From the NCBI GenBank assembly GCA_004375895.1, contig SOJW01000035.1, forward strand, positions 42,264 through 106,263: DNA of 64,000 nt. The letters are read 5' to 3'. Below, one piece after another: positions 21,841 to 43,787 of this stretch (positions are counted from its first letter, which is position 1; each line of letters begins with the position of its first letter). The position numbers and the translations under genes were made by a program. Source of the stretch: Candidatus Stahliibacteriota bacterium (GTDB lineage Bacteria; Hydrothermota; Tepidihabitantia; B3-TA06). The notes beneath the pieces are model-generated. The model made no database searches, was not told where the DNA came from, and saw nothing but the letters and a program-made list of their open reading frames with translations.

Positions 21841-21878
21841 GGGGTCCCAGCGAAGTCACGAAGTGACTTCGTGGGGTG
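21841..21878 (+). repeat. Conserved-stem hairpin family GGGGTCCC..N11..GTGGGGTG, copy 1
   Basis: ggggtcccagcgaagtcacgaagtgacttcgtggggtg. Other copies at 22447 (inverted), 33353 and 43749. Confidence 0.65.
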
Positions 21879-22182
21879 AACACACGAAAAATCGGACTGA
21901 TTCAACAGCTTGTCATATTGCTAGATTAAGTGAGTGGCGGGATATCCACCGACATGGTGGTACAGGGATTTGAGCCTGTAGGAGCGACGCATGCGTCGCC
22001 CCTACGTCTATGCCGTATTCTTGGAGTATCTCGGCAGGATCTCGACGTGGTTCAGCGTAGGGGCCGACGTTCGCGGCCTTTGGCCACGCGCTTCGGGCTT
22101 GAGACTTGCCACTATCTGCATATACTGAACTCCGTTTCTTTGTTTCATGGGTGCATTCTCCCCGATGGGGCAATGAGTTGTC

Positions 22183-22210
22183 TTGACATTAGGTGGTAGT
22201 TTCTTATAAT
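22183..22210 (+). promoter_or_regulatory. tRNA-Gln promoter TTGACA-16-TATAAT
   Basis: Perfect consensus hexamers about 15 nt upstream of the tRNA. Confidence 0.65.
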
Positions 22211-22225
22211 CTTAACTAAACCTTT

Positions 22226-22296
22226 TGGGGGATCGTCTAATGGCAGGACGGCTGACTCTGGATCAGTTAATCGGGGTTCGAGTCCCTGTCCCCCAG
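22226..22296 (+). tRNA. tRNA-Gln (anticodon CUG)
   Basis: Acceptor TGGGGGA/TCCCCCA, anticodon stem GCTGA/TCAGT with loop CTCTGGA giving CUG. T-loop TTCGAGT, discriminator G. D-stem is short. Confidence 0.8.
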
Positions 22297-22304
22297 GTTT
22301 TATG

Positions 22305-22334
22305 CCCCACAGTTAAGACTGTGGGGTTTCCTTT
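22305..22334 (+). terminator. Rho-independent terminator after tRNA-Gln
   Basis: CCCCACAG-ttaaga-CTGTGGGG followed by TTTCCTTTT. Confidence 0.7.
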
Positions 22335-22384
22335 TCCGTAGTACTTTCCCGATTAGCTGATCCAGTTTAATATAAAAAGTTAAT

Positions 22385-22447
22385 CGGAGGCTCGACCGTA
22401 AGGAGAGCGACCGAAGAGAGCTCCCATCCCTGTCCCCCAGGTTTTAC
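22385..22447 (+). repeat. Degenerate partial tRNA-Gln duplicate (3' half, including an exact 20-bp copy of the 3' end)
   Basis: gttaatcgg...ccctgtcccccaggtttta repeats tRNA positions ~40-71. Confidence 0.55.
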
Positions 22448-22655
22448 CCCACGAAGGTACTGCGTCCCTTCGTGGGGACCCCGAATAAATGCTCCTTTTG
22501 CCCGTAGGGCAAAGGAGCATGGGCAGGAAAGAGGACGGTCGTGTACCCGACTGGGACTAGGCATTCTTTTGAGGGCCGCGGTAGAATTACCTGATTTTTA
22601 ATGCCTATCCCCATTAGAACTTTACATTTTAGCTTGTCTTTCTGTTATATGGTTA

Positions 22656-22695
22656 ATAAAAAAGAAAAGACGATGGTGCTACCATCGCCTTTTCG
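22656..22695. terminator. Bidirectional terminator-like hairpin in an AT-rich spacer
   Basis: aaaaaagaaaa-GACGATGGT-gct-ACCATCGCC-ttttcg. Confidence 0.5.
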
Positions 22696-22984
22696 CCGAT
22701 CTAAGTCCCAAACGATCTACTGCACAATATTGTAGGGGAAAAGCACTCCGCTGAACTCGTAGGAGCCTTCTTCATTTTTTCTCCTTATTGAGGGTTTAAT
22801 CCTATTTCCTTCTTGAGTCCTGGATTGTCAAGCCATTCGGCGTGAGCGGACTCTTTGAGAGCGCGCGGGAATCCCTGTAAGTGACGTCAGATCAATAGAT
22901 AATCACAAAATTTGTGCCGATATACTGGTTTAGTTTCCCCTCCTCCTCGCAAGAGAAAGGCCTAAGCTTGATTGTGCTTGAACG

Positions 22985-24565
22985 CTACCAGTTACGCAAA
23001 GCGATCAGCCGCAGCTCCGAGAGCTCAAGTTCATCCCTTGGCAGCGGCAACGACTCCAGCATCGCGCGTGCATCGTCGGTTCCAAGCAATACCAGAAGCT
23101 GCAACCGCTCCTGGGTCAAATCGCCGTTCCACCCTGAAAGCGACTCCTTCTTTGCGGTAAGTATCTGGGCCACTTCAAGCATCTCAGGGGAAGGATTTTC
23201 CTTGTTAAGTCCAGCAAGAGTTGCTTCAGGATCAGCCCCGAGCTTTGCCGCCACCACATAACCCCAGCGTCTCACATCCGGATGTGCGTCCGCAAACCGG
23301 CGCCGGATCAAAGGGAGTGCTTTGGACACACCGATCAGACCCAATGCCTGCACCCCGGCCAACCGAATGCTCCAGAACTTGTGGGCAAGTACGCCTCTCA
23401 GAGCATCTATGGATGAGACGTCGCGCAGCCATCCGATTGAGGTAACCGCTTCTTGCTGCACCTCCCATGAGACGTCGTTGAGTCGCGAGCGCAGTGCGGA
23501 AGCCGCAGTAGGATCGCCGATAGCCCCAAGGGCAAACGCAACCTGCTCCCTCACCGGTGGTTCCGGGTCGGACATTAACTCGATCAGAGGCTCTAGCGCC
23601 TTCCTGCTTCCCAGAAGCCCAAGGGCGTGTGCCGCAGCCATCACGCAAAGATCGTTCTCATCCTCAAGCCCTGAGATCAGCACGTCCTCAGACTGGATAT
23701 CTCCAATACGGCCGAGTGCCTCGGAAACTGCTTGCCTTACCTCAGGTTTTTTGTCTGAGGCCTTGGTCACAAGCGGCTTCAACGCGCGTTTATCTTTAAG
23801 CATTCCCAACGACAACGCCGCCTTGGCACGAACGGCCCACCGGGAATCATCCAAGAGCTTTAACAAGGTCTCTACAGCGGTGGTGTCGCCTATTCGACCG
23901 AGTGCCTGTGCTATGAGGTGGCGGTCAGGAACGGCAGGGTCAGTCGCGGCTTGGGCGAGAACCCCGGTGGCCCTGTGGTCGGCGATCTTCGCCAGTGCAG
24001 CGAGTGTCCTGTTGCGTTCTGAGCCTGAAAGCGAAGCAACGCGCTTAAGGAAGATAGGAACCGCCTCCTTTGATTCGAGCTTACCCAAAGCCTCGGTCGC
24101 GTTCTCGCGGACGCGGCGGTCGACATCCTCAAGGGCCTTCAGTAACGCGCCAATCGCCCGCGCGTCTGCAATCTCCCCCAGCGCCCAGGCGGCGTTGGTT
24201 CGTACCGGTGCCGCACGATCAGAGAGCGCATCAATCAGAGGCGTCAGCGCCGAGGTGTCCCCCAACAGCCCCAATGACCATGCAGTCTCGTACCGCACCC
24301 CAATAGAGGGTGACTTTAGCGCAGCGATAAGGGCAGGTATGGCTCCAGGGTCATCCAGATACCCAAGGGCTTCGGCAGCAAACATACGCGTCTGCTCGGA
24401 AGGGCATCCCAGCGCCTTGCGCATAAGCGTGATAGTTCCATCATGATCCACCTCGGCAAGAGAGTCTATGTAGTCGCGACGATCTTCTATGGAACGAAAC
24501 GCCATTGCATCAAGCGCTCCGCAGTCAAGCGGAGCACTGAAAAGTAGAAACCAAACAAACATCAC
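22985..24565 (-). CDS. Secreted HEAT-repeat (PBS-lyase-type) protein
   Basis: Signal peptide, then more than 12 tandem HEAT-like repeats (VR..AA.ALG.IGD..A...L..AL.D.). Confidence 0.75.
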   Translation of the reverse strand: MMFVWFLLFSAPLDCGALDAMAFRSIEDRRDYIDSLAEVDHDGTITLMRKALGCPSEQTRMFAAEALGYLDDPGAIPALIAALKSPSIGVRYETAWSLGLLGDTSALTPLIDALSDRAAPVRTNAAWALGEIADARAIGALLKALEDVDRRVRENATEALGKLESKEAVPIFLKRVASLSGSERNRTLAALAKIADHRATGVLAQAATDPAVPDRHLIAQALGRIGDTTAVETLLKLLDDSRWAVRAKAALSLGMLKDKRALKPLVTKASDKKPEVRQAVSEALGRIGDIQSEDVLISGLEDENDLCVMAAAHALGLLGSRKALEPLIELMSDPEPPVREQVAFALGAIGDPTAASALRSRLNDVSWEVQQEAVTSIGWLRDVSSIDALRGVLAHKFWSIRLAGVQALGLIGVSKALPLIRRRFADAHPDVRRWGYVVAAKLGADPEATLAGLNKENPSPEMLEVAQILTAKKESLSGWNGDLTQERLQLLVLLGTDDARAMLESLPLPRDELELSELRLIALRNW

Positions 24566-26111: not shown

Positions 26112-28554
<2,443 letters not shown>

Positions 28555-30091: not shown

Positions 30092-30104
30092 AGCAAGGCC
30101 TGTC

Positions 30105-33031: not shown

Positions 33032-33156
33032 GATTCTCCTCCTAAATCATTTCTGAAGAGTATATAGTCGCTCTCATAGGTGTCAAGAAGAAATCACCCC
33101 CACCCTACCCTCCCCCGTTAAGGGGAAGGATACACCTTTTTCCCCTCCTCGGGTTT

Positions 33157-33205: not shown

Positions 33206-33305
33206 ATATTCTCATCTCAAAGCATAAAATAATATAGACCAGTCTGAGACTGGTCTATAATCTCTTTTCTCCGATCTTTTGCCGTTTGCGGCAAAGGGAG
33301 GATAT

Positions 33306-33390
33306 AGGGGGCCCCCAAGGTTTTACGAGGTAAAATCTTGGGGTGTAAATTCGGGGTCCCCGCGAGGGTATGAAGTAACCTCGTGGGGTG
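33306..33390 (+). repeat. Two tandem conserved-stem hairpins (GGGGGCCCCCAAGG..CTTGGGGTG and GGGGTCCCCGCGAGG..CCTCGTGGGGTG) abutting the gcvH stop
   Basis: Both have 11-nt loops. Matches the family at 21841, 22447 and 43749. Confidence 0.65.
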
Positions 33391-33810
33391 TTATTTCGCG
33401 TGCTTGGCGATCTCCGTCTTGAGCCAGGTGGCAGCCGCTTCGCCGTGCATCAGAGCGTCAACCTCAGCGGGATCGGCTGGTTTCATGGTAAATATCCAGC
33501 CCGCCCCGTAGGGGTCGGAGTTCACAAGGCTGGGATCGTCCTCCAGCTCGGAGTTCGTCTCAACAATCTCTCCGGCCACAGGTGCGTAGATCTTGCCCAT
33601 CCACTTGCCGGTCTCGTATGAGCCAATCACTTCATCTGCCTGGGCCTCAGAGGAGGTCTCAGGCAGTTCGATGAAGGAGAGCTCACCGGAAAGCTTCTGG
33701 CTGAAGTCGTTGAGGCCAACACGGATAACGTCGCCTTCCTTACGAACCCACATGTGTTCCTTGTGATAGTATAGTTCGTCGGGAAGATTGTATCCTTCTA
33801 TCTCCGCCAT
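33391..33810 (-). CDS. gcvH: Glycine-cleavage H-like lipoyl-carrier protein, stand-alone (LbpA-like candidate)
   Basis: HMWVRKEGDVIRVGL...ETGKWMGKIYAPVAGEIVETN, with the lipoyl-Lys in ETGKW. No gcvT or gcvP nearby. Confidence 0.85.
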   Translation of the reverse strand: MAEIEGYNLPDELYYHKEHMWVRKEGDVIRVGLNDFSQKLSGELSFIELPETSSEAQADEVIGSYETGKWMGKIYAPVAGEIVETNSELEDDPSLVNSDPYGAGWIFTMKPADPAEVDALMHGEAAATWLKTEIAKHAK

Positions 33811-33834
33811 CTTGCCTCCTTAAAGATTGCGATC

Positions 33835-34128
33835 TTACGATATGATGTGCTTTGCTTCTTCGATGAGTGATGTTAACCCATCGTAGTTGACTGTTTTTCC
33901 CTCCGGCGCGGTAAGGCCGCGAGCCGCCAGATCCTCAGCAAGAAACCGGACGGTAACGCCGGCCGATTCCATCTCGGAGAGTTTCCGAGAGAGTTCTTTC
34001 GGCCCCTGCACTGCAAGCACCGCATCCTGGGCAAAGCAGATGGTGTCGCCTCGCTTGGCCAGACGGGCAGCCAGCTGCCACGCCGTGCGCTCAAAGGTAG
34101 AGCGGGTTACGAGATAAAGATTCTCCAT
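33835..34128 (-). CDS. DsrH/TusB-like sulfur-relay protein
   Basis: 97 aa. Position and size match the third gene of a dsrEFH/tusDCB triad. Confidence 0.6.
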   Translation of the reverse strand: MENLYLVTRSTFERTAWQLAARLAKRGDTICFAQDAVLAVQGPKELSRKLSEMESAGVTVRFLAEDLAARGLTAPEGKTVNYDGLTSLIEEAKHIIS

Positions 34129-34136
34129 GCCTCCGC

Positions 34137-34496
34137 CTAATTAAAGGTTATCACGTGGTCGACCGAGGAGATCAACCTACGCAGTTTTTCATCATCTAAG
34201 ACCTCGGCCTCGATACAAGCATCAGGAGAAATACCGTGATCGGCCAGGGACGGGTGGTGAAGGTAAAGCTTTGCCCCGAGCCCTGGTAATTGCGCGTATA
34301 AGTCTACGAGATTATTCATATCGAGTACTTCCGGACTTTGGTTTTTGAGGGCAACCATCACTCCGTCGTCTACAAGGACAACGTGCGTTTGGATTCCCAT
34401 ACTCACGAGACCAATCAATGCGCGGAAACCCTCGCCAGCTGTGGCCATCCCGTAAGGAGCCGAACGGATGAGGACGGCTACCTTCTTTGCTTCCAT
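34137..34496 (-). CDS. DsrF/TusC-like sulfur-relay protein
   Basis: VAVLIRSAPYGMATAGEGFRALIGL, DsrE/DsrF-like fold. Start at the internal Met. Confidence 0.65.
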   Translation of the reverse strand: MEAKKVAVLIRSAPYGMATAGEGFRALIGLVSMGIQTHVVLVDDGVMVALKNQSPEVLDMNNLVDLYAQLPGLGAKLYLHHPSLADHGISPDACIEAEVLDDEKLRRLISSVDHVITFN

Positions 34497-34498
34497 GA

Positions 34499-34849
34499 CT
34501 AGAATCCAAAGGAGAGAAAACGGTCGCACTCCTTGACGTAGTTGGAGAACACGACCATACCCGCAAGTTTTGTGCCTTCAATGATGTCGGTCCTCTTCAA
34601 ACCTCGGAACTTTGCACACGTGCCGCACGCCTTTATCTTTGCACCTTTCTGAGCAAGTTCAGCCATCATCTCGGCAAGGTTACGTTCCTGGGGAGACTGT
34701 ATTTCTTTGTCAAGATTGAAGACCCCGTCTTCGTAGAGAAACATCCTTACCTCGTGCCCCCTGGCCAAAAATCGACTGGCCAGTTGGTAGCAGGTGTCTA
34801 CGTTCTGAGACGTGTAAGGGCCTGTTCGCAGAAGAAAACCGACAGTCAT
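34499..34849 (-). CDS. DsrE/TusD-like sulfur-relay protein
   Basis: FLLRTGPYTSQNVDTCYQLASRFLARGHEVRMFLYEDGV...CGTC. Confidence 0.7.
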   Translation of the reverse strand: MTVGFLLRTGPYTSQNVDTCYQLASRFLARGHEVRMFLYEDGVFNLDKEIQSPQERNLAEMMAELAQKGAKIKACGTCAKFRGLKRTDIIEGTKLAGMVVFSNYVKECDRFLSFGF

Positions 34850-34873
34850 CTATCCATCAGGGTTGAAAGTCCT

Positions 34874-35104
34874 TTAGACCTTTCGACGGATGTAGAATTT
34901 TAATGTATCACCCTCTTCCTCCATACCCAGAAACTCGTTCCCTGTCTGATCGCACCATGCGGGGAAGTCCTCGCGCGCCCCTTCATCGTCGGACAGAACC
35001 TCAAGAACCTCGCTCATATCAACCTCTTTTATCTTCTGGGCGGTCTTGAGCACAGGTATGGGGCAAAGCATCCCTCGCGCGTCAAATGTGTGGTCTTTAT
35101 CCAT
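34874..35104 (-). CDS. tusA: TusA-family sulfurtransferase
   Basis: DARGMLCPIPVLK, the CPxP motif. Confidence 0.8.
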   Translation of the reverse strand: MDKDHTFDARGMLCPIPVLKTAQKIKEVDMSEVLEVLSDDEGAREDFPAWCDQTGNEFLGMEEEGDTLKFYIRRKV

Positions 35105-35130
35105 TTCTGTTCTCCCTCCTACAAACAGAT

Positions 35131-35526
35131 CTAGGTTGCCTCTTTGGGGGGATCGAACTCATCCAAAGCCTGCATCAGGTATCCTATGTATTCAAAAACC
35201 GGCCCGCCGCCCATGGCAAGTGCGATGTTGGCCGCATCCAGGATCTCGGCGCGCGTACACCCCACCTGGACGCAGATCTGGGTATGCAGGTTGATGCAGG
35301 GGCGGCAGTGCTGGACCAGAACTATCGCCAGTTGCATCAGCTCCTTGTACTTCGTGGGTACCGTGCTTTCTTCCTTGGTCTTGCGCCAGAACTGCATGAA
35401 TGCGGCAGCTGCATCACTCGCCTCTCTTCTGTATCTTGCCTGAGCCTTGTTGATCTGGCTCTGTTCTGATTCTTTGGAAAGGTGTGTGTTACGGGTGTGG
35501 GTGTTACTGGGGGTCACGACGGCCAC
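35131..35526 (-). CDS. Carboxymuconolactone-decarboxylase/AhpD-like protein; N-terminus encoded by the GTTACGG repeat
   Basis: CMD-like core ...LVQHCRPCINLH. N-terminal VTPSNTHTRNTH is encoded by the repeat at 35481-35515, so the true start is uncertain. Confidence 0.55.
   Translation of the reverse strand: MAVVTPSNTHTRNTHLSKESEQSQINKAQARYRREASDAAAAFMQFWRKTKEESTVPTKYKELMQLAIVLVQHCRPCINLHTQICVQVGCTRAEILDAANIALAMGGGPVFEYIGYLMQALDEFDPPKEAT
35481..35515 (-). repeat. GTTACGG-type repeat within the 5' end of the AhpD-like ORF
   Basis: ggtgtgtgttacgggtgtgggtgttactggg on the plus strand. Read on the coding strand it gives T-R-N-T codons, as in tatD and the glycosyltransferase. Confidence 0.7.
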
Positions 35527-35750
35527 TCCTCGGCCTTGGCCCGGAGAAGATCACGCAGATTGTCAAGCGAGGAAAGGAGTTCTTCGTCTAAGATATCTGC
35601 ATCTATCTTATCGGGATCGAAGAGCTTGCCGTCAATCTGAAAGGTCATAAGCTCAGGAATCATCTCGGCACCCCTCACCCCTTCCCGTACCAGGAAGAGA
35701 GCGTGCCCTAATGGGATGTCGTCTTCGAACTCAGCCGGCAGGTTTTTCAC
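35514..35750 (-). CDS. Small acidic hypothetical protein
   Basis: 78-aa ORF inside the operon between hdrB and the AhpD-like gene. Confidence 0.35.
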   Translation of the reverse strand: MKNLPAEFEDDIPLGHALFLVREGVRGAEMIPELMTFQIDGKLFDPDKIDADILDEELLSSLDNLRDLLRAKAEEWPS

Positions 35751-36636
35751 TTACAGCTCCGATCCGCTCAAGGATCTTGGTGGGTTTAACACGGTTGATC
35801 TTGAAGCCCAGCTCGTCAGGGGTGTAGCCAAGAGCCAGTCCCAGAAGCTGGGTATAGTAAATGCAGGGCATCGCGAACTTCTGCTCAAGCTCCTTCTCAA
35901 TCTTTTTCTGGTTCTGCTCGTACATCACGTTGCAGAACGGACAGATAAGTATCATCGCCTCGGAGCCTGAATCCTTGATGCTAGCCAGTTTCTTGCCCGC
36001 CATGGCGTAAGCCACGTCCACCCGAATACCGAGTATGGCACCGCCGCAGCAGAGTTCCCGCTCCGAGTATGGATTGCTACGAGCGCCGGTGGCGTTGATT
36101 AAATCGTCGTAGACGTGGGGATTTTCGGGATCATCGAAATTCTCGAACGCCTCGGATGGTTTGAAGAAGTGGCATCCGGGGTGGGCGGCTACTGGTAAGG
36201 ACTGAAGATCGACCTTGACCTCTTGTTTGATGCGCTCGATCCCGATGTCCTCATATAGTACCCGGGCGAAGTGGCGGACGTTTACTGTACCCTTGTATTC
36301 CAGGTCTTCCTTTTTGAGGATCTCATTGACCTGGGCCAGCTTCTTGACATCGTGCTTCAGCTGGTGATTGGCTTCCACCTGTGTGCCTGTGCACGCGGTG
36401 CATAAAGTGACCATGTCCAGCCCCTGCTTCTCGGCCAGGGCCAGATTGCGGGCGGCCATGACTAAGGAAGAGCGCTGATCCACGGATTTGATAGGGAAGC
36501 CGCAGCAGGTAAAGGAGGGGATGTCAACGAGCTCGATACCGAAGTGCTTGGCGATAAGTCGGGCGGAGAGCTCGTAGTTCTGCGCGCGAACAGGAACGGT
36601 GCAGCCCAGATAGAGGGCGAACTTCTTTTTACTCAT
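35731..36636 (-). CDS. hdrB: Heterodisulfide reductase subunit B-like (two CCG domains)
   Basis: KKFALYLGCTVP...CCGFPIKSV, plus a second Cys-rich CCG-type domain (CPFCNVMY). Confidence 0.85.
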   Translation of the reverse strand: MSKKKFALYLGCTVPVRAQNYELSARLIAKHFGIELVDIPSFTCCGFPIKSVDQRSSLVMAARNLALAEKQGLDMVTLCTACTGTQVEANHQLKHDVKKLAQVNEILKKEDLEYKGTVNVRHFARVLYEDIGIERIKQEVKVDLQSLPVAAHPGCHFFKPSEAFENFDDPENPHVYDDLINATGARSNPYSERELCCGGAILGIRVDVAYAMAGKKLASIKDSGSEAMILICPFCNVMYEQNQKKIEKELEQKFAMPCIYYTQLLGLALGYTPDELGFKINRVKPTKILERIGAVSEKPAG

Positions 36637-37255
36637 CTTTGCTTCCCTCAGGTTTAGTTGTAGCTCCTGCGTCGGCATCGGTGGATGCACTGCCAGCCTC
36701 TTTTGCTTCGCTGGAGTATAGGTACAGACCGGTGGCCTTGAAGATGGTCTTTATGGGATCGGGTGATTCGGTAAGTTCGGGCAGTTCTATCTTGGCCCGC
36801 TTCTTGTTGACGAACGCATCCGCTTCATACAGTCTGCCGTGTCCTTGAATTAAATCTATCTGTGCGGTGAACGCGGGATGGATGTAGCCGTTCTTCACGG
36901 CAAGGTTCTTCAAAGCGTTCATCATCTCGGTGATACGCACGTCCTGTGGACAGCGCTCGTGGCAGGCATAGCAGGTCGAGCAGAGCCAGACGAACTCGGA
37001 TGCCAGGACCTGTTCCTTCATACCCAGCAACGCCATGTGGATAATGCGTCGGGGGTTGAAGGTCTCCTCGATTGAGCGGACCGGACAGGATGCGGTGCAG
37101 GTTCCGCACGCATAGCACCGGGTGATGAACTCCCCCGAAGGCTCGGCCTGAATCTCGTATTTGAAGTTGGGGTCTAATTCATCAAATTTGATCACTTTCG
37201 GTTCCTTGGCCTTGGTGACCTCATCAACCGCTTCCGCGTCTTGGTTTTCGTTCAT
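36629..37255 (-). CDS. hdrC: Heterodisulfide reductase subunit C-like (2x[4Fe-4S] ferredoxin)
   Basis: CYACGTCTASCPV and CSTCYACHERCPQ. Confidence 0.8.
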   Translation of the reverse strand: MNENQDAEAVDEVTKAKEPKVIKFDELDPNFKYEIQAEPSGEFITRCYACGTCTASCPVRSIEETFNPRRIIHMALLGMKEQVLASEFVWLCSTCYACHERCPQDVRITEMMNALKNLAVKNGYIHPAFTAQIDLIQGHGRLYEADAFVNKKRAKIELPELTESPDPIKTIFKATGLYLYSSEAKEAGSASTDADAGATTKPEGSKDE

Positions 37256-37289
37256 GACCTTATCTTCTTCCAAAATTTCTCCACAATCT

Positions 37290-38162
37290 CTAATACTCGT
37301 GGGGCAGGCCTTCGAGTTGGTCGAGGGAAAATACCGGCCCATCTTTACAGACATAATAAGGACCAATGTTGCAGCGGCCGCACTTGCCTATCCCGCACTT
37401 CATCCGGCGCTCAAGAGATGTGTAGATCTGATCGGGTTTGAACCCCAGCTTGGTTACCACCGGCAGGGTGTAGCGGATCATTGCAGGCGGCCCGCACATG
37501 AGAAGAAACGCGTTATCGGGGGATGGAGCGATTTGTTGAGTGACTGTCGGAACGAATCCGACCAGACCGCCCCACCCCTGGGACTCGGTGTCCACGGTCA
37601 GGTGGATGGGCAGATCGTCGCGCTTGGACCACTCGGCAAGCTCGTCTTTATAGAGCAGCATCCCCGGGGTGCGCGCACCGTAGATAACGGTAACGTCGGC
37701 GTAGTCTGCGCGATGCCCGTCAAGAAGCCAGCGGATGACCGACCGCAGGGTGGTGAACGCGAACCCGCCGGAGACGATCACCAGGTTATGCCCCTTGTAC
37801 TTCTCAAGGGGATACCAGTTGCCCAACGGCCCGCGCATGCCGATCGGAGTGCCGACTTCAAGCTGGTGCATGGTGTTTGTGACCAAACCAGCGCGATTTA
37901 CGGTGAAGCGCACGTAGTCTTGCTCGGTGGGTGCCGACGCGATACCGAAAGGCGCTTCACCCTTGCCTAAGATAGAAACCTCGCAGAACTGACCGGGCAG
38001 AAACTGGAAAGATTCCTTGTCTTCGGGGTCTACGAACTCCAGGTCAAACGTCTTAAGCATCCCGTCCTCGGACTCCACACGTATATCTTTGATTCGCATG
38101 GGCACAGGCAGGTAAGGATTCGAGCGCTTGAAGAAAAGCTTCACCGCAGGAGATTGTTCCAT
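37290..38162 (-). CDS. FAD/NAD(P)H-binding oxidoreductase with a C-terminal [2Fe-2S] cluster (PyrK/AsrB/HydG-like)
   Basis: FLPGQFCEVSILG..PFGIAS (FAD), GGFAFTTL (NAD), CGIGKCGRCNIG. Confidence 0.8.
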   Translation of the reverse strand: MEQSPAVKLFFKRSNPYLPVPMRIKDIRVESEDGMLKTFDLEFVDPEDKESFQFLPGQFCEVSILGKGEAPFGIASAPTEQDYVRFTVNRAGLVTNTMHQLEVGTPIGMRGPLGNWYPLEKYKGHNLVIVSGGFAFTTLRSVIRWLLDGHRADYADVTVIYGARTPGMLLYKDELAEWSKRDDLPIHLTVDTESQGWGGLVGFVPTVTQQIAPSPDNAFLLMCGPPAMIRYTLPVVTKLGFKPDQIYTSLERRMKCGIGKCGRCNIGPYYVCKDGPVFSLDQLEGLPHEY

Positions 38163-38373
38163 TAGGGCTGATTATAGGAAAATGAGCATAGATGTCAATG
38201 AGGAAGAGTCCTTAAGTCAGGTTTGAGTCCTACTCGTCAGGTTTGAATGCAATTCGGCGCATTTTTTGCGCGAAATTTGACGGTTTTGGGGGAATGGAAG
38301 GCCGGATAATGTTTCGGAAACACATATTGACAATAGAATATACTTCCTTACACTATTCTTAGAAGGAGGTTTT

Positions 38374-39021
38374 ATGCAAAAGAAAATACACCTCATCACC
38401 CTCTCACTTATCCTTATCGGAGGGATATGGATGACCCGCTGCGTATCCCCTTACTACGGCACGGCAAGGATAGAGCCGGGATGGCAGCTTGATACCGGTC
38501 TAGGACTGCATACCACCCTGATTCCGGTGCTTGACGGTGGTGACCCCGTTTATGGTGTCGGCATACGCTGCGACGGTGAAATAGGTTACGGTTTGGATAA
38601 GTACGTAAAACCCTACGCGAGAGCTGCGCTGGGCCTTAACACAGCCTACATAGGATACGCGGACATTGGTTTAGGCCTTCAAGTGGCTCTGCCGGTATGG
38701 ATATTCACCCCTGCGGTAAAACTTGAGATCAACTCCACTTGGATACAGCCCACCTTTTCCCCGGTCGTTCTATTAGGAATTGGCAAAAGTGAGTGGGTTA
38801 CCCTTGGGGCTAAAACCTATTTTTTCCCCTTCGCTGATTCGAACTACCCCAGATTTCTGGACGTATTTACCACCGTCCACATCTCTCCCCGCTGGTCAAT
38901 ATTCGCTGGTGCCGAGATTAACTCCTTCATTGATACCTTCGAAGACGGCAACGGCTACCCCTTCTTCACGGTGGGGGCTGGTTACAAGTTCCCGCCCTTC
39001 CGAGGCAAAACAAGGATTTGA
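38374..39021 (+). CDS. Hypothetical small outer-membrane protein
   Basis: Signal peptide and beta-strand pattern. Confidence 0.45.
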   Translation: MQKKIHLITLSLILIGGIWMTRCVSPYYGTARIEPGWQLDTGLGLHTTLIPVLDGGDPVYGVGIRCDGEIGYGLDKYVKPYARAALGLNTAYIGYADIGLGLQVALPVWIFTPAVKLEINSTWIQPTFSPVVLLGIGKSEWVTLGAKTYFFPFADSNYPRFLDVFTTVHISPRWSIFAGAEINSFIDTFEDGNGYPFFTVGAGYKFPPFRGKTRI

Positions 39022-39159
39022 GGATTTGAGCAAGGTAGTGGCGACTCAGGGCCTGCCCCTTGAGATGTTGTACATCTCATAGGGTATGAGTCGCCACTAC
39101 AGATTCCGCGTAATCTGCGGTTTTCATTGCTCCTTTTGGGCGTAGCTCAAAAGGAGCAT

Positions 39160-39738
39160 CTACCAAACGTACCGCAAGCCTATGCCTACTCCGGGCGAGG
39201 CGAAGAAGTAGGGTTCATTGTAGTAATCCCTGCCATAGTAAGACCGCGAAGGCCGTGAATAGAAGCCAGCCTGAAGCTCTGGGGTAACGGAAAGCCACCT
39301 GTCCTTGCCCATCTTGAAGAGGAGCCAGTCAGCTCCCACAATAAAGGCGGTGGAAAGACCCCATTTTGTCTCCAGTGACCACCAGTCCCAGTAATCTTCA
39401 TACTCATAGTCATCCCAGTCTTCAAACCACCCTTTAACATACCATGCGCCCACCCCCGCACCCAGATAAATCCTGAATCGGTTATCCGGGTTCACGATCT
39501 TAAGGATGCGCAGCGCACCGGCCATGTGGTAGGTGGAAGAGCCGGTCTGAGGGTTATCAAACCTTCCGCGGGCCACGATCTCAAAACCAAAGCCCTTCTC
39601 TGAAAGAAGCCGATAGGCAAGGCCTTGTCCAAGGAAGTCGGCCTGCATGCCGATACCCTGTTCAGCAAGGAGGGGCGTGCCAAAGCCGCCAAGCAGCAAA
39701 GAAACCACCATCCCCTTGAGTGCAAGGGTTCTGAACAT
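39160..39738 (-). CDS. Small outer-membrane beta-barrel protein (OmpA-like 8-strand barrel type)
   Basis: Signal peptide, ends ...GLRYVW. Confidence 0.55.
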   Translation of the reverse strand: MFRTLALKGMVVSLLLGGFGTPLLAEQGIGMQADFLGQGLAYRLLSEKGFGFEIVARGRFDNPQTGSSTYHMAGALRILKIVNPDNRFRIYLGAGVGAWYVKGWFEDWDDYEYEDYWDWWSLETKWGLSTAFIVGADWLLFKMGKDRWLSVTPELQAGFYSRPSRSYYGRDYYNEPYFFASPGVGIGLRYVW

Positions 39739-39746
39739 CTCCCCAC

Positions 39747-40307
39747 CTACCAGTTATAGCTTATCCCGAAACCAATATCAGGGAACCAGAAGCGAGTTTC
39801 TGCTTCCTCGAAGGTCCCGTAGGCACTGGAACTCATATCGCGTCTGTAAAGGAATCCGGATTCGAGCTCGATCCGGAACCTGTCAAGACCTTGATCCTTG
39901 TCTTTGACAAGGATCTGCATAAGGATCTGCAAAGGAGCTATACCGGCTCCCACGTAGATACGTCCACCCAATCCAATATAGCTGCTGGATCCGTAGATCT
40001 CGCCCGTGCTGCCGAAACCCAGCCCGACGTAGGGTGAAAACCACTCGTCCTGTGAGAACATCACCCCGCCCCTGAGGCCGGCGCTGTAGAATATATCCTG
40101 ACCGCCTTCATCGTAGGTAAACACCCCGATACCGTGAGGGGCCACGAACAAAGCAGCCTGCTCCTTTAGCGGGACAAACAGGCGGAACTCAAGCCCGCCC
40201 GAGACCGGATCAACCCTGCCGCCGAATCCGAAACGATAGGATGCCGCGGCAACCGCAGGGATAAGCAATGTGCACACAACGAGTGCAATGGTTATTCTTT
40301 TCAACAT
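39747..40307 (-). CDS. Small outer-membrane beta-barrel protein (paralog-like)
   Basis: Signal peptide MLKRITIALVVCTLLIPAVAAA, ends ...GISYNW. Confidence 0.55.
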   Translation of the reverse strand: MLKRITIALVVCTLLIPAVAAASYRFGFGGRVDPVSGGLEFRLFVPLKEQAALFVAPHGIGVFTYDEGGQDIFYSAGLRGGVMFSQDEWFSPYVGLGFGSTGEIYGSSSYIGLGGRIYVGAGIAPLQILMQILVKDKDQGLDRFRIELESGFLYRRDMSSSAYGTFEEAETRFWFPDIGFGISYNW

Positions 40308-40441
40308 GCACGCCTCCTTTTCAATAAGGTAACTATAAGGCTGAACCTGGAAGTTGTCAATACCCCCATCCCGCGCAACCACCAGAGGGGAATCAAAGCA
40401 AGGAGTCTACAAGAAAATACGTCGTGTTTCTTTGGGGTAAA

Positions 40442-41146
40442 TTAAAACCTGAACGCAGTGGAAAGCCCGAACTCCGGATAGAACACTACCCCGTTGGAGG
40501 TCGAACCGAAAAGGATGTTCCAATCCAACCCGGTTCCAAAAAGCCAGCTGAAGCCTTCGGTGTGCACCGCCGCAACTGCGAATCCGAAGTTTAATCTCAT
40601 CCCCATACGGTGCTCCTTCACGTAGTCAATAGCCATCCTGTAGTCGTTGACCAGTATCTTGATGTCCTCAAGCGTGAGGGTATTTATGTACTCCTCGACC
40701 TTAGCCTGGGTTGCCGCCGGGATGAACCAGTTGTTTGTAAACTGGAATCCAAGCGGGAAAAGCACCCTGTCGTTGGCCGCTGAAAAGGATTTCTGCAACC
40801 CCCACGCCCACTGCACGTGCACGTAGGGAATATCCTGAGTGGCGTCGATATCCAAAGGATAGTAAGGGATGTTCTCGATGTGTCCTTTTGCGGTGTAGTT
40901 CTTGTAGTGGACGTTTAGATCTACTGCAAATCCAATGGAGCGCTCGTCCTCAAGCGAAAGTCCGATGTGGAAGAATCCCGGCGGTGGGATGCCTGGCCTT
41001 GAGACCTCCACATGACACCCGGAGTTGGGGTTGGTATAGTCCGCGGAATCAGCACCGATATTGTAAAGCCCTGCGCTGTATCCCAGATCCAGCCCGAACT
41101 GCCAGGGGGCGGAAATAAGAACTAACGATACAATCAAAGCATTCAT
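40442..41146 (-). CDS. Outer-membrane beta-barrel protein
   Basis: Signal peptide, ends ...STAFRF. Confidence 0.5.
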   Translation of the reverse strand: MNALIVSLVLISAPWQFGLDLGYSAGLYNIGADSADYTNPNSGCHVEVSRPGIPPPGFFHIGLSLEDERSIGFAVDLNVHYKNYTAKGHIENIPYYPLDIDATQDIPYVHVQWAWGLQKSFSAANDRVLFPLGFQFTNNWFIPAATQAKVEEYINTLTLEDIKILVNDYRMAIDYVKEHRMGMRLNFGFAVAAVHTEGFSWLFGTGLDWNILFGSTSNGVVFYPEFGLSTAFRF

Positions 41147-41191
41147 AATCGCTCCCTCCGTGTTTGGGAGAGATTATACGGTGAATTATTT

Positions 41192-41240
41192 GGAGTGCAA
41201 CAACCGTGTTGTTGCCGCAATGACATGGTCATTGCACTCC
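41192..41240 (+). repeat. Structured repeat family copy 4
   Basis: GGAGTG-[CAACAAC cgt GTTGTTG]-ccg-[CAATGAC atg GTCATTG]-CACTCC. Confidence 0.7.
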
Positions 41241-41321
41241 ATACAACCTACGAAATCCGCGTTAATCTGCGGACGCCTATGGCGAGAACGACTGCTAAGG
41301 AGTTCTCATCTGTGGTTTATA

Positions 41322-42722
41322 TCACCATTTACCGGTCGTCAGATACTCGTGCATAGAGCGGGCGGCTTTGCGGCCTGCGCCCATGGCTAATATCACGGTG
41401 GCCGCACCGGTCACGATGTCCCCGCCGGCCCACACAGCCTTCTTGGTGGTCTTGCCGGTCTCTGCATCGGCCACGATGTAGCCCCACTTGTTAGTCTCAA
41501 GACCGGGGGTGGATGAGGGAACCAGGGGGTTGGCCCCATTGCCGATCGCCACCACCACCGTGTCCACGTCCATCTTGTACTCCGAGCCTTCGATTGGTAC
41601 CGGCCTGCGGCGGCCGGATGCGTCCGGTTCACCCAGCTCCATCTTTAAAAGCTCAACCTGCTTCACGCGCCCGGCCTCGTTGCCTATGTAGCGCACAGGG
41701 TTGACCAGGAAGTTGAATATGACCCCTTCGTCCTCGGCGTTCTCAATCTCTTCGTCACGGGCGGGCATCTCCTTGCGGCTACGGCGGTAGATGATGTGGG
41801 CCTCCTTGGCTCCTAACCGCAGGCTGGAGCGAACCGCGTCCATGGCCACGTTCCCGCCTCCTATTACTATCACACGCTCACCCACCCGGATTGGGGTGTC
41901 GTACTCAGGGAACAGATAGGCCTTCATCAGGTTGATGCGGGTAAGGTACTCGTTCGCCGAGTAGACCCCGACCAGGTTCTCGCCCGGTATGTTCATGAAC
42001 CATGGAAGCCCTGCACCCAGACCAAGGAAGCAAGCCTCGTATCCCATCTCGAAGAGCTCGTCCACCGTAGCGGTACGGCCGACCACGAAGTCAAGCTTGA
42101 GTTCCACGCCTATCTTTTCTAGTATTTCGCACTCGCGCGCCACGATCGCCTTGGGCAGACGGAACTCGGGGATGCCGTAAACCAAAACGCCGCCAGGTTT
42201 GTGCAGCGCTTCGAATAACGTTACCTTGTGTCCCAGCCTGGCCAGGTCCGCTGCCACGGTGAGTCCGCCCGGACCTGAACCGACCACCGCGACCTTGTGA
42301 CCTGTTGGCGGTGCGACCTCTGGCACAGCCATCTTGCCCTCTCTTATCTCCCAGTCGGCAACGAAGCGCTCCAACCGCCCTATTGCGACCGGCTCAAAGC
42401 GTTTAGAGAGAACACAAACTATCTCGCACTGCTCCTCCTGGGGGCAGACACGTCCGCAAACACCGGGCAGAAGGTTGGTCTCGCGTATCTTGGCCAGAGC
42501 GCTCTCGAAATCTCCTTCTGCTACGAGCTCGATGAATACGGGAATATCTATCTCCACCGGGCAGCCCTCTATACAGAAGGGCTTCTTGCACTGGATGCAG
42601 CGCTCGGCCTCCTTTTGGGCAAGTTCGGCGCTAAAGCCTAATGCCACTTCGTTGAAGTTGCGGATACGCTCTTTTGGTCTCTGCTTGGGCATCGCCTGTC
42701 GGGGTATCTTGGTATCAGGCAT
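41322..42722 (-). CDS. NADPH-dependent glutamate-synthase beta-chain-like oxidoreductase (NfnB/SudA)
   Basis: Two N-terminal Cys clusters (CIQCKKPFCIEGCP; CGRVCPQEEQCE). FAD and NAD Rossmann motifs VAVVGSGPGG, VIGGGNVAMD. Confidence 0.9.
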   Translation of the reverse strand: MPDTKIPRQAMPKQRPKERIRNFNEVALGFSAELAQKEAERCIQCKKPFCIEGCPVEIDIPVFIELVAEGDFESALAKIRETNLLPGVCGRVCPQEEQCEIVCVLSKRFEPVAIGRLERFVADWEIREGKMAVPEVAPPTGHKVAVVGSGPGGLTVAADLARLGHKVTLFEALHKPGGVLVYGIPEFRLPKAIVARECEILEKIGVELKLDFVVGRTATVDELFEMGYEACFLGLGAGLPWFMNIPGENLVGVYSANEYLTRINLMKAYLFPEYDTPIRVGERVIVIGGGNVAMDAVRSSLRLGAKEAHIIYRRSRKEMPARDEEIENAEDEGVIFNFLVNPVRYIGNEAGRVKQVELLKMELGEPDASGRRRPVPIEGSEYKMDVDTVVVAIGNGANPLVPSSTPGLETNKWGYIVADAETGKTTKKAVWAGGDIVTGAATVILAMGAGRKAARSMHEYLTTGKW

Positions 42723-43560
42723 CTTGTGCCCCTACCGCGGCCTGGTAGCGTTCGAGCGAGATCTTTTCTTCTTCCTTGAAGGAGGCCAGACGTTTTAAGA
42801 GCAGATCGAAGTTCACCTTGTGGCCGTCGAACTCCGGTCCGTGCACGCAGGCGTAGCGGGTCTCACCGCCGACCTCTACCCGGCAAACCCCACACATGCC
42901 GGTGGCATCTATCATGATTGAGTTGAGCGAGACCATCGTCTTTATGTTATAGTGGCGGGTCAAATCGCACACCGCCTTCATCATGATGGCAGGGCCTACA
43001 GCGATGATCTCGGCGATGGGACGACCTTTTTCCAGGTGATCTTTGAGTTCTGTGGTTACGAACCCTTCGCGGCCGTAGGTGCCGTCGTCGGTGGTGACGT
43101 AGACCTCGTCTGCAAAGGAGCGGAACTCCTCTTCCAGGATCACGATGTCCTTGGAGCGATAACCGAGAATGGCGATCACCTTGTTGCCCGCTTCCTTGTG
43201 CTTGCGGGCGATGGGCAGGACTTCGGCTGAGCCTACGCCGCCAGCGATGGCGAACACCTCGCCGTCAAGTTTTTCGATGGGTGTAGGATTACCAAGTGGC
43301 CCAATCACGTCGGCTATCTCGTCACCGGCATTCATTCGCCCCATCTGGAATGTAGTCTTACCCAGCTCCTGCACGTAGACGGTGATGGTTCCCGCTTGCG
43401 CGTCCGCGTCAGCGATAGTGATGGGGATGCGCTCACCCTTCTCATGCAACCGAAAGACAACGAACTGACCGGGCTGCCGCTTTTGGGCAATGATGGAAGC
43501 CTCGATTACAAAGCGATTTACCTCGGGATTTACGCGTTGGCGCTCAACGATACGGAACAT
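42715..43560 (-). CDS. Ferredoxin-NADP+ reductase-like small subunit (NfnA/SudB, PyrK family)
   Basis: FAD/NAD-binding fold and C-terminal CGVCRVEVGGETRYAC [2Fe-2S]. Translationally overlaps the NfnB-like gene. Confidence 0.85.
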   Translation of the reverse strand: MFRIVERQRVNPEVNRFVIEASIIAQKRQPGQFVVFRLHEKGERIPITIADADAQAGTITVYVQELGKTTFQMGRMNAGDEIADVIGPLGNPTPIEKLDGEVFAIAGGVGSAEVLPIARKHKEAGNKVIAILGYRSKDIVILEEEFRSFADEVYVTTDDGTYGREGFVTTELKDHLEKGRPIAEIIAVGPAIMMKAVCDLTRHYNIKTMVSLNSIMIDATGMCGVCRVEVGGETRYACVHGPEFDGHKVNFDLLLKRLASFKEEEKISLERYQAAVGAQDA

Positions 43561-43675
43561 CCAGCCTCCTTGGGGGGTTCAATTTCAAAGTTCGTGATTA
43601 TACGGGTTTGGGAAGGTGTGTCAATCAGTATGCACCCCACGAACCCGTCAGCCTTACATCGCACTCGTCACAAAA

Positions 43676-43745
43676 AAGGTGGTCAAAAGTTGGACAAAAG
43701 GTGGTCAAAAGCTACCCAAAAGTTGGACAAAAGTGGGACAGGATT
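43676..43745 (+). repeat. Iteron-like array of ~6 tandem 11-12-bp repeats (GGTGGTCAAAAG / TTGGACAAAAG)
   Basis: ggtggtcaaaagttggacaaaaggtggtcaaaagctacccaaaagttggacaaaagtgggacagg, in the divergent intergenic region. Confidence 0.6.
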
Positions 43746-43748
43746 TAA

Positions 43749-43787
43749 GGGGGTCCCCGCGGAATTGCAAAGCAATTTCGTGGGGTG
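43749..43787 (+). repeat. Conserved-stem hairpin family copy
   Basis: gggggtccccgcggaattgcaaagcaatttcgtggggtg. Confidence 0.65.

What the first reader, a model, noticed from the sequence alone, without database searches (positions are those of the whole stretch)
21841..43787. Second dispersed hairpin family with fixed flanks GGGGTCCC ... GTGGGGTG and a constant 11-nt loop
Copies lie at 21841-21878, 22447-22483 (inverted), a tandem pair at 33306-33390 that abuts the gcvH stop, and 43749-43787. The closing helix is conserved while the inner stem covaries (AAG/CTT, AGG/CCT, GAA/TTT). The loop is always 11 nt and the loop sequence is unrelated between copies. Three copies follow gene ends. One lies in a divergent promoter region beside an iteron-like array.
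Basis: seen in the sequence. Interest (0 to 1): 0.62.

Follow-up and report, generated by a model that had tools for sequence, protein, structure and literature searches.

The report
REP-like tagged hairpin repeat family
The flagged hairpins are real copies of a 39-base palindromic repeat scattered between genes of a Stahlbacteria genome; it resembles the REP elements of E. coli but carries a different end tag and recurs in about nine bacterial phyla.

Summary
The window holds seven intact copies, one decayed copy and one tag-less relative.

- **Structure:** covariation is strong (94-95% of cells paired against 44-56% in slid controls).
- **Strand asymmetry:** pairing is better on the GGGGT-first strand (G·T 65 against A·C 11). 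This holds whichever strand is mRNA sense.
- **Not terminators:** no copy has a T tail, and nothing matches Rfam.
- **Turnover:** among related genomes the copies are gained, tandemly duplicated, swapped for other subtypes at the same site, and left to decay.
- **Distribution:** the same core occurs in WOR-3/Stahlbacteria, Cloacimonadota, Clostridia, Acidobacteriota, Actinomycetota, Dormibacterota, Saccharimonadales and two proteobacterial classes, often nested in the loop of another local repeat.

Best reading: a REP-like, non-autonomous palindromic repeat whose spread passes through a single-stranded phase. It does not carry the GTAG or CGTC tags of described REPs. No RAYT or other transposase was found linked to it, so how it is mobilised remains inferred.

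The parts
6620..6662 (-). Copy A: CGGGGTCCCC-ACCCTCGCAG-CAAG-CTGCGAGGG-TGGGGC. It lies 5 nt downstream of tRNA-Cys. The GGGGT-first ('top') strand is antisense to the tRNA.
   Evidence: covariance model 25.4 bits, E 1.3e-4, not in the training set
21839..21880 (+). Copy B. It lies 64 nt after the stop of a 449-aa secreted-type protein. The tag reads GGGGTCCCA, with one bulged G.
   Evidence: A near-identical inner stem occurs in another WOR-3 genome (L073).
22304..22327 (+). Tag-less short relative, CCCCACAG-TTAAGA-CTGTGGGGT followed by a T-rich tail, directly after tRNA-Gln. It behaves as an ordinary terminator-like hairpin.
   Evidence: listed as terminator-like; weak model hit of 10.3 bits
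22443..22484 (-). Copy C. It follows a 20-nt duplicate of the tRNA-Gln 3' end. A partner hairpin lies at 22491-22518.
33306..33347 (+). Copy D, degenerate: the tag is GGGGGCCCCC and the closing helix has A-T in place of C-G.
   Evidence: 41.8 bits. The same copy occurs in relative L127 with an eroded tag.
33351..33392 (+). Copy E. Its 3' end is flush with the stop codon of the GcvH/LbpA-like gene (33391-33810, -), so the mRNA carries the weaker bottom strand.
40402..40441 (+). Decayed copy, GGAGTCTAC...CTTTGGGGTAAA, flush with the stop of a 234-aa gene. The ortholog in a 96%-identical relative (L124 2145-2186) is intact.
43748..43789 (+). Copy F, in a divergent intergenic region immediately after the 11-nt periodic A-tract array.
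57397..57438 (-). Copy G. It lies 5 nt after the stop of a 308-aa CNNM/CBS protein. A partner hairpin lies at 57446-57480. It is present in a 95% relative and absent in 78% and 74% relatives.
33269..33301 (+). Partner hairpin CTCC-GAT-CTTTTGCC-GTTTG-CGGCAAAG-GGAGG, just 5' of the tag. Equivalents lie at 22491-22518 and 57446-57480. It is a second repeat that travels with many copies in WOR-3 genomes.
43672..43741 (+). Array of six 11-nt units (AAAAG-nTGGnC) preceded by a conserved box at 43633-43671. This is the 'iteron-like array' of the finding. The same box-array-hairpin module recurs at other places in other WOR-3 genomes.

Best explanation
This is a REP-like repetitive extragenic palindrome. 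The unit is 39 nt and non-coding: C-GGGG-T, then a hairpin with a CCCC-R closing helix, a 9-bp variable stem and a G-N-A triloop, then T-R. It multiplies and turns over in intergenic DNA and encodes nothing itself.

**Shown**
- The family and its 14-bp hairpin.
- Pairing is selected on one strand only, the GGGGT-first strand. This includes a nearly fixed G·T at the fifth pair. It holds whichever strand the neighbouring gene transcribes.
- Copies are gained, duplicated in tandem together with a 6-8 nt leader, replaced by other subtypes at the same site, and left to decay.
- Copies settle flush with stop codons, next to promoters, after tRNAs, and inside the loops of other hairpin repeats.

**Inferred**
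- Spread goes through a single-stranded form of the top strand, most likely DNA, because C-GNA-G triloops are the classic very stable DNA mini-hairpin.
- The tag plus the G·T-marked foot would be read by a trans-acting enzyme, as in REP/RAYT and IS200/IS605 systems. Alternatively, copies are written over each other by template switching between the conserved ends.
- At gene ends the copies probably act secondarily as 3' hairpins in the mRNA.
For: **Family and chance:** (4 strict matches against 0 expected; 7 model hits in 64 kb).

**Structure:** one search gives 94.0% of cells paired against 44-54% with slid partners, and 219 double-sided changes against 52 in shuffles. One search gives 95% paired on 142 distinct copies. 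One search gives top-strand DNA folds of -12 to -12.6 kcal/mol with z about -4.2 to -4.9.

**Strand asymmetry:**
- G·T/T·G 129 against A·C/C·A 12 on the top strand, or 65 against 11 without the pair fixed by the search pattern.
- the top strand is more stable in 97-100 of 122 copies.
- the ratio is 14:2 where the top strand is mRNA sense and 14:1 where it is antisense.
- orientation relative to genes is balanced in WOR-3/Stahlbacteria, 10 against 12.

**Turnover at the GcvH-like stop codon:**
- The site is empty in the 78% and 73% relatives.
- It holds one copy with a different inner stem in the 96% relative.
- It holds one new copy plus a truncated old one in the 85% relative.
- It holds three copies in the 83% relative, which keeps the window's subtype exactly.

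**Other turnover:** a decayed copy; a clean 43-nt presence/absence of leader plus 37-mer; a lineage-specific copy G; and a copy with its partner hairpin 4 nt upstream of a -35 box in one relative only.

**Nesting in other hairpins' loops, in three phyla:**

**Distribution over about nine phyla, several contigs per genome:**

**Architecture compared with the published REP definition** (tag 0-2 nt 5' of the foot, stem 7-20, loop 2-5, G+C-rich foot): PMC6006769, PMC3733652.
Against: - No transposase is linked to the family. There is no Y1/HUH gene in the window. None lies between inverted or direct pairs of copies. No gene family is enriched near copies in 112 loci.
- The only Y1_Tnp found (L066) is flanked by an unrelated 37-nt inverted repeat and lies 5 kb from a copy.
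- The tag is not GT[AG]G or CGTC.
- Copies occur singly or in direct tandem, not as the inverted doublets typical of REPINs.
- No target-site duplication or fixed target could be defined outside the GcvH-like site.
- Tag and closing helix stay intact at orthologous sites while the inner stem changes. Host-level selection could also explain that.
- Gene calls in the foreign loci were crude longest-ORF calls, so orientation counts are approximate.
Confidence: 0.55

Rival explanations
1. The hairpin is a host-selected RNA element. It would work in the transcript of the neighbouring gene as a 3'-end stabiliser or processing stop after genes and tRNAs, or as an insulator in front of promoters. On this view its spread is secondary.
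For: - In WOR-3/Stahlbacteria, six of twelve copies whose bottom strand is in the mRNA start within -1 to 5 nt of the stop codon.
- Copies follow tRNA-Cys and tRNA-Gln, and a tRNA in L068.
- Several copies end 7-10 nt before a TTGACA -35 box.
- Tag and foot are kept at orthologous sites while the inner stem differs.
- REPs close to stop codons are known to affect mRNA decay and translation (cited in PMC6006769).
Against: - Both orientations are about equally common (10 against 12).
- At A, D/E and G the mRNA carries the strand with an A·C mismatch, which folds about 4 kcal/mol worse.
- The wobble asymmetry does not depend on transcription direction.
- No copy has a T tail, while canonical T-tailed terminators lie nearby.
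- One copy has been left to decay.
- Convergent selection would not explain the same unpaired tag in about nine phyla.
Confidence: 0.2
2. The element is a structure-specific recombination site, working like an integron attC site. A recombinase would read the folded top strand (tag plus G·T-marked foot) and exchange the inner part or the adjacent DNA between sites.
For: - Folding is strand specific, with conserved ends and a free inner stem.
- Copies sit directly after stop codons.
- The inner stem at the same site was replaced in a 96% relative, while an 83% relative keeps the window's subtype.
- Inner-stem subtypes are shared between genomes at non-orthologous sites.
Against: - No integrase or recombinase lies near any copy.
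- The flanking genes are syntenic housekeeping genes, not cassettes.
- The attC core sites (GTTRRRY) are absent.
- The conserved ends are short, and replacement could equally come from template switching or re-insertion.
Confidence: 0.1
3. The element is a double-stranded protein-binding site. The 11-bp palindrome CGGGGTCCCCG next to a 31-bp palindrome would be bound by a dimeric nucleoid, gyrase-type or regulatory protein, and copy number would reflect chromosome organisation.
For: - Position is independent of orientation.
- The conserved tag is not part of the hairpin and forms a perfect palindrome with the 5' arm.
- All five exact GGGGTCCCC sites in the window lie in copies.
- Enterobacterial REP clusters are known to bind gyrase and IHF (general knowledge).
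Against: - A duplex site would not favour G·T over A·C on one strand.
- It would not show compensatory changes along 9 variable pairs.
- It would not explain gain, loss, tandem duplication and nesting in other hairpins' loops.
Confidence: 0.08

Closest known systems
GTAG-tagged REPs with their RAYT transposase (E. coli, Pseudomonas, Stenotrophomonas)
   Same: Length of 20-40 nt, extragenic, many copies, G+C-rich foot and short loop. An unpaired conserved tag lies immediately 5' of the hairpin on the strand that folds best. Mismatches are kept in the stem. Copies are often within a few bases of stop codons and are mosaic with other motifs.
   Different: The tag is CGGGGT, not GT[AG]G. No RAYT was found next to copies. 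Copies are single or in direct tandem rather than inverted doublets. The inner stem comes in many subtypes rather than one consensus per genome. The same core is shared across phyla.
CGTC-tagged REPs (Di Nocera et al. 2013, PMC3733652)
   Same: A tagged palindromic repeat superfamily with no dedicated transposase identified, found in several phyla, mostly at gene 3' ends.
   Different: The tag sequence is different. Those repeats occur mainly in Alphaproteobacteria. The present family is mainly in uncultured lineages (WOR-3, Cloacimonadota, Clostridia genomes assembled from metagenomes, Acidobacteriota, Actinomycetota).
Subterminal hairpins of IS200/IS605 elements (for example IS608)
   Same: A CCCC/GGGG-footed imperfect hairpin read on one DNA strand only, with a short guide sequence just 5' of the foot. 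Insertion goes into single-stranded DNA without target duplication. This matches the strand asymmetry and the nesting in hairpin loops seen here.
   Different: Those hairpins come in pairs at the ends of an element that carries tnpA and/or tnpB. Here a single hairpin stands alone, and no TnpA or TnpB was seen in any locus.
BIMEs (bacterial interspersed mosaic elements)
   Same: Hairpin units combined with other short conserved motifs into composite intergenic blocks. Here these are the partner hairpin, the A-tract array module and the outer GTCATTCCGAGC repeat in Clostridia.
   Different: The component motifs and the organisms are different, and units are arranged directly rather than in alternating orientation.
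Integron attC sites
   Same: Conserved ends, a free but paired centre, one recombinogenic strand marked by non-canonical positions, and a position right after stop codons.
   Different: No GTTRRRY core, no integrase and no cassette arrays. The element is much shorter (39 nt against 57-141 nt).

Membership tests
REP / RAYT (GTAG superfamily) | Short (about 20-65 nt) imperfect palindrome, extragenic, in many copies | tested here: met
   Seven intact copies in 64 kb, all intergenic. About 13 further copies in 66 kb of related genomes.
REP / RAYT (GTAG superfamily) | GT[AG]G tetranucleotide 0-2 nt 5' of the hairpin foot (PMC6006769, PMC3733652) | tested here: not met
   The bases 5' of the foot are C-GGGG-T in 93 of 98 unique copies. 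No GTAG or GTGG lies in that position on either strand.
REP / RAYT (GTAG superfamily) | Basal stem of 7-20 pairs with a G+C-rich foot, and a loop of 2-5 nt | tested here: met
   A 14-pair stem with a CCCC/GGGG foot and a 3-nt loop.
REP / RAYT (GTAG superfamily) | A RAYT (Y1 HUH transposase) gene flanked by copies of the same repeat | tested here: inconclusive
   None in the window or in about 1 Mb of loci. The one Y1_Tnp ORF (L066, Pfam E 8e-8) is flanked by a different inverted repeat. No whole host genome could be searched.
REP / RAYT (GTAG superfamily) | Frequent inverted doublets (REPIN/BIME unit) | tested here: not met
   Pairs in the window and relatives are direct tandems with 7-10 nt between copies.
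CGTC-tagged REPs | Unpaired CGTC motif at one end of the palindrome | tested here: not met
   The flank consensus is (T)TC-GGGGT at the 5' end and T-R at the 3' end.
Intrinsic (Rho-independent) terminator | G+C-rich hairpin followed within 0-2 nt by a T-rich tail | tested here: not met
   No copy is listed in the terminator scan on either strand. Nearby canonical terminators and the tag-less hairpin at 22304-22327 are listed.
IS200/IS605 element or its miniature derivative | Two subterminal hairpins bracketing tnpA and/or tnpB, or a short element bounded by a left-end and a right-end hairpin | tested here: not met
   Single hairpins. The ORFs between direct or inverted pairs are ordinary genes such as ClpX, MreB, EutBC and Rex.
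CRISPR repeat | Arrays of identical repeats separated by unique spacers of about 25-40 nt | tested here: not met
   Most copies are single. Tandem copies are 7-10 nt apart and differ in their inner stem.
Integron attC | R''/R' core sites (RYYYAAC / GTTRRRY), an integrase and cassette arrays | tested here: not met
   The core sites are absent from the consensus. No integrase appears in the annotated surroundings.
Any Rfam family | Match to a curated covariance model | tested here: not met
   Only tRNAs reach the gathering score in the window and 18 loci. The best sub-threshold match at a copy is 16 bits against a cut-off of 50.

The most novel reading that the evidence does not exclude
The GGGGT-tagged hairpin is a third, undescribed superfamily of tagged palindromic repeats, beside the GTAG and CGTC superfamilies. 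On this reading it is shared by about nine phyla, including candidate lineages (WOR-3/Stahlbacteria, Cloacimonadota, Saccharimonadales, Dormibacterota). It would be moved or overwritten by a still unidentified machinery specific to single-stranded DNA structure. That machinery would read the tag plus the G·T-marked foot and treat the inner stem as an exchangeable cassette. This would account for subtype replacement at fixed sites and for insertion into the loops of other hairpins.
Probability: 0.25. Interest if true: 0.7.

Novelty: new variant of a known kind. Interest (0 to 1): 0.5.

Why it matters
REP-type repeats are textbook objects in Proteobacteria, yet how most of them spread is unsettled. 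The CGTC class has no known transposase.

A family with a new tag has three useful properties:
- a clear single-strand signature;
- documented gain, replacement and decay among close relatives;
- the same 39-nt core in phyla as distant as Actinomycetota, Clostridia and WOR-3.

That makes it a good test case for finding the enzyme, or the replication error, that moves such elements. Profiling which genes are present only in genomes that carry the family is now feasible with the covariance model.

There is also a practical point. These hairpins sit at contig ends of genomes assembled from metagenomes, abut stop codons, and create spurious ORFs. Recognising them improves annotation of uncultured lineages.

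Tried and rejected
- **Intrinsic terminator:** rejected. No copy has a T tail on either strand.
- **Known RNA family:** nothing in Rfam at gathering or at E <= 10.
- **CRISPR-like array:** rejected on spacing.
- **Linked gene:**
  - All-against-all clustering of 2,803 ORFs from 113 sequences found only generic families: ABC ATPases, secreted proteins and response regulators.
It proved to be flanked by an unrelated inverted repeat.
  - ORFs between inverted or direct pairs of copies are housekeeping genes.
- **Phage or plasmid origin:** 6 stretches in 2.9 million viral contigs, and only chance partial matches in PLSDB and INPHARED.
- **Literature by sequence string:** GGGGTCCCC and GGGGACCCC returned nothing relevant. 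The supplements of PMC3733652 do not contain the motif.
- **Target-site duplication:** direct repeats flank the copies at the GcvH-like site. They are explained by tandem duplication of leader plus unit, and they are absent at copies A, B, C, F and G.
- **Chance matches in the genome scan:** matches in Thermus, Streptomyces, Planctomycetota, Chloroflexia, Longimicrobium and Gemmatimonadota do not score with the covariance model. I treated them as chance.
- **Similarity of the tag region to the 16S rRNA 3' end:** considered and dropped as unsupported.


Full report
**1. What is in the window**

The sequences at the reported coordinates are as described. Written with GGGGTCCCC first (the 'top' strand), the copies found by pattern and regular-expression search are:

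| Copy | Coordinates | Strand |
|---|---|---|
| A | 6620-6662 | - |
| B | 21839-21880 | + |
| C | 22443-22484 | - |
| D | 33306-33347 | + |
| E | 33351-33392 | + |
| F | 43748-43789 | + |
| G | 57397-57438 | - |

The strict pattern has 4 matches against none in 100 shuffles.

Comparison with a close relative also reveals a decayed copy at 40402-40441. Its tag reads GGAGTCTAC where the relative has GGGGTCCCC. A shorter hairpin without the tag follows tRNA-Gln at 22304-22327.

The host is a Candidatus Stahlbacteria (WOR-3 lineage) bacterium. The window's aldehyde dehydrogenase is 100% identical to a protein so named, and the same species occurs in GCA_030588455.1 and several metagenomes.

**2. 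Anatomy**

The '11-nt loop' is not a loop. In 98 unique 37-mers from the window and other genomes, positions 6-19 pair with positions 23-36. The parts are:
- four invariant C-G pairs;
- an R·T pair (G·T 64, A-T 28, G-C 5);
- a C-G pair;
- eight variable pairs, purine-rich on the 5' arm and pyrimidine-rich on the 3' arm;
- a 3-nt loop that is G-N-A closed by C-G in most copies.

On a 77-sequence alignment, 94.0% of cells form standard pairs. That compares with 76.5% in column shuffles and 44-54% when partners are slid. There are 219 double-sided changes against 52 expected. On 142 distinct model hits the figure is 95% paired, though that alignment is fitted to the model.

Outside the hairpin, C-GGGG-T on the 5' side and T-R on the 3' side are conserved in every lineage. 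Further flanks are lineage specific: TTC in WOR-3, CCC in Acidobacteriota and Defluviitaleaceae.

**3. One strand matters, and it is not defined by the host gene**

On the top strand, G·T/T·G pairs outnumber A·C/C·A pairs 129 to 12. Leaving out the pair constrained by my search pattern, the count is 65 to 11.

The top strand folds better than its complement in 97-100 of 122 copies. For E, F and G the DNA folds are about -12 against -8 to -9 kcal/mol.

Orientation relative to neighbouring genes is balanced in the WOR-3/Stahlbacteria set: 10 copies with the top strand in the mRNA, 12 with the bottom strand. In the window the top strand is antisense to both neighbours at A, D/E and G.

The wobble asymmetry is the same in both classes, 14:2 and 14:1 (gene calls there are crude). 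Transcription-linked mutation cannot produce this pattern. Nor can selection on the host mRNA. It points to a single-stranded phase of the element itself.

**4. Not a terminator, not a known RNA**

This organism uses canonical TTGACA-16-TATAAT promoters and T-tailed terminators. Several are detected in the same intergenic regions, but no copy of the family is followed by a T tail on either strand. Rfam gives only the two tRNAs.

**5. Turnover among relatives**

The gene order GcvH-like then aldehyde dehydrogenase is conserved, so the site of D/E can be followed across relatives. Percentages are amino-acid identity of the dehydrogenase to the window's protein.

| Relative | State of the site |
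|---|---|
| 78% and 73% | Empty |
| 83% (L127) | Three copies: two near-identical tandem units of the window's E subtype, then the D copy |
| 85% (L126) | A copy with a different inner stem between the stop codon and a truncated E-type copy |
| 96% (L124) | A single copy with yet another inner stem |

The distant relative keeps the E subtype exactly while the close one does not. Gradual compensatory drift cannot explain that. The inner part was replaced, either by re-insertion or by copying from another copy.

Spacers in the tandem sets repeat the last bases of the gene (AAGTAA, AAGTAG, AATTTA). The duplicated unit is therefore a 6-8 nt leader plus the 39-mer.

Other events:
- Copy G is present in a 95% relative and absent in 78% and 74% relatives.
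- A copy with its partner hairpin sits 4 nt upstream of a -35 box in one relative only.
- A clean 43-nt difference, leader GATTAC plus the 37-mer, separates two versions of the A-tract module.
- One copy is decaying.
- At another orthologous site, tag and foot are intact in two lineages while the inner stems differ.

**6. Distribution**

After filtering with the covariance model, real members, usually several contigs per genome, come from:
- WOR-3/Stahlbacteria
- Cloacimonadota
- Clostridia, in several gut-derived genomes
- a Defluviitaleaceae genome
- Acidobacteriota (Angelobacter, Korobacter, Terriglobia)
- Actinomycetota
- Dormibacterota
- Saccharimonadales
- Alphaproteobacteria, and one Zetaproteobacteria bin

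Matches in Thermus, Streptomyces and some others do not score and are chance.

Identical 37-mers occur in a Firmicutes genome and in Acidobacteriota genomes with unrelated flanks. Inner-stem subtypes are also shared between WOR-3 genomes at non-orthologous places. For example, window copy B and L073 differ by one base next to proteins only about 34% identical.

In three phyla the copies sit in the apical loop of a different, lineage-specific hairpin repeat:
- Clostridia: GTCATTCCGAGC ... GTCGAGGAATCCCC, which also exists without the insert.
- Cloacimonadota: ATCACGGC ... GCCGTGAT.
- Acidobacteriota: GACGGGCTT ... AAGCCCGTC.

Viral contigs, plasmids and phages hold essentially none.

**7. Search for a partner**

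No transposase, integrase or HUH protein is encoded in the window. No gene family is enriched beside copies. ORFs bracketed by pairs of copies are housekeeping genes.

One Y1_Tnp/RAYT-like ORF (L066, Pfam E 8e-8) lies 5 kb from a copy. It is flanked by its own, unrelated 37-nt inverted repeats. Whole host genomes could not be searched, so absence of a partner is not shown.

**8. Interpretation**

The element has the architecture of a tagged REP as defined in PMC6006769 and PMC3733652. That means an unpaired conserved tag just 5' of a G+C-footed hairpin on the folding strand, a short loop, an extragenic position, many copies, frequent contact with stop codons, and mosaic association with other motifs.

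It fails the defining tag (GT[AG]G or CGTC). It also lacks the inverted-doublet habit and a linked RAYT. I therefore file it as working like a REP, not as a member of the described superfamilies.

The propagation step is inferred from three observations: the transcription-independent strand asymmetry, the GNA triloop closed by C-G (from general knowledge, the classic hyperstable DNA mini-hairpin), and the preference for loops of other hairpins. Two mechanisms fit:
- a trans-acting enzyme acting on single-stranded DNA, of the HUH kind;
- template switching between the conserved ends at forks stalled by the hairpin.

A secondary role in mRNA 3' ends is plausible but untested.

**9. Verdict**

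The loop description is wrong. The REP-like idea is right in kind but not in family. The family appears undescribed in Rfam and in the literature I could search, and its cross-phylum core is the most notable feature. Interest is moderate.

Noticed in passing
window 43633-43830; also L021 3620-3800, L126 20300-20560, L127 about 21150-21330, L083, L087, L107: The 'iteron-like array' is six 11-nt units (AAAAG-nTGGnC, phased A-tracts). It is preceded by a conserved box (..GTCAGCCTTACATCGCACTCGTCAC) and followed by a hairpin copy and a second related box (CGTCAGGTTT..). The whole module recurs at non-orthologous places in other WOR-3/Stahlbacteria genomes, there with a hairpin copy on both sides. 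Its function is unknown; curved DNA, an origin-like site or another composite repeat are possibilities.
   Followed up: partly
window 22491-22518, 33269-33301, 57446-57480; L039, L125 2935-2975, L127 4826-4870: A second repeat family, a hairpin CTCC(GAT)CTTTTnCC-loop-GGnAAAAGGAGG, lies 5-15 nt 5' of the GGGGT tag in many copies. Its 3' arm carries a Shine-Dalgarno-like AAGGAGG. The flanking part is about 95% identical between two genomes while the adjacent GGGGT hairpin has a different inner stem.
   Followed up: partly
window 22225-22484; L103 1370-1680: The last 20 nt of tRNA-Gln (tccctgtcccccaggtttta) are duplicated about 130 nt downstream. The first copy is followed by a tag-less T-tailed hairpin, the second by copy C. 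Another WOR-3 genome has three tandem tRNA-3'-end fragments, each with a hairpin copy. This suggests repeated tandem duplication or remnants of integration at tRNA ends.
   Followed up: no
window 21780-21815, 33045-33130, 21985-22015, 57497-57560: At least two further hairpin or palindrome families crowd the same intergenic regions: a GGGGAGGGG/CCCCTCCCC type, and a TAGGGGCACGGCATGCCGTGCCCCTAC type. The second also occurs in relatives L126 and L127.
   Followed up: no
window 57600-57678; L128 11090-11225; L129 1790-1850: Four direct repeats of GGTGTTACGGG lie immediately upstream of a perfect-looking promoter (TTGACA-16-TATGAT) of a small gene. They are conserved in relatives and look like operator or activator sites.
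   Followed up: no
window 33391-43560 (- strand): The 'gcvH' next to copy E lies in a cluster TusA-DsrE-DsrE-DsrH-GcvH, downstream of CCG-domain and 4Fe-4S hdr-like genes and NfnAB-like genes. Relatives carry a separate gcvT-gcvH-gcvP set elsewhere. It is therefore probably a lipoate-binding protein of an sHdr-type sulfur-oxidation system rather than the glycine-cleavage H protein (inference from gene context).
   Followed up: no
L116 2380-3420 (Clostridia genome assembled from a metagenome): A 1-kb non-coding stretch is built almost entirely of nested repeats. The outer repeat, GTCATTCCGAGC..GTCGAGGAATCCCC, carries in its loop nothing, a GCGAAGC-type mini-hairpin, or one or two GGGGT-tagged hairpins.
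   Followed up: partly
L066 6469-7076: An Acidobacteriota RAYT-like gene (Pfam Y1_Tnp) is flanked by 37-nt inverted repeats that contain a GGGCTTTAGCCC-type hairpin. The same hairpin type encloses a GGGGT-tagged copy in L012. The two repeat systems therefore coexist and interleave in that phylum.
   Followed up: partly
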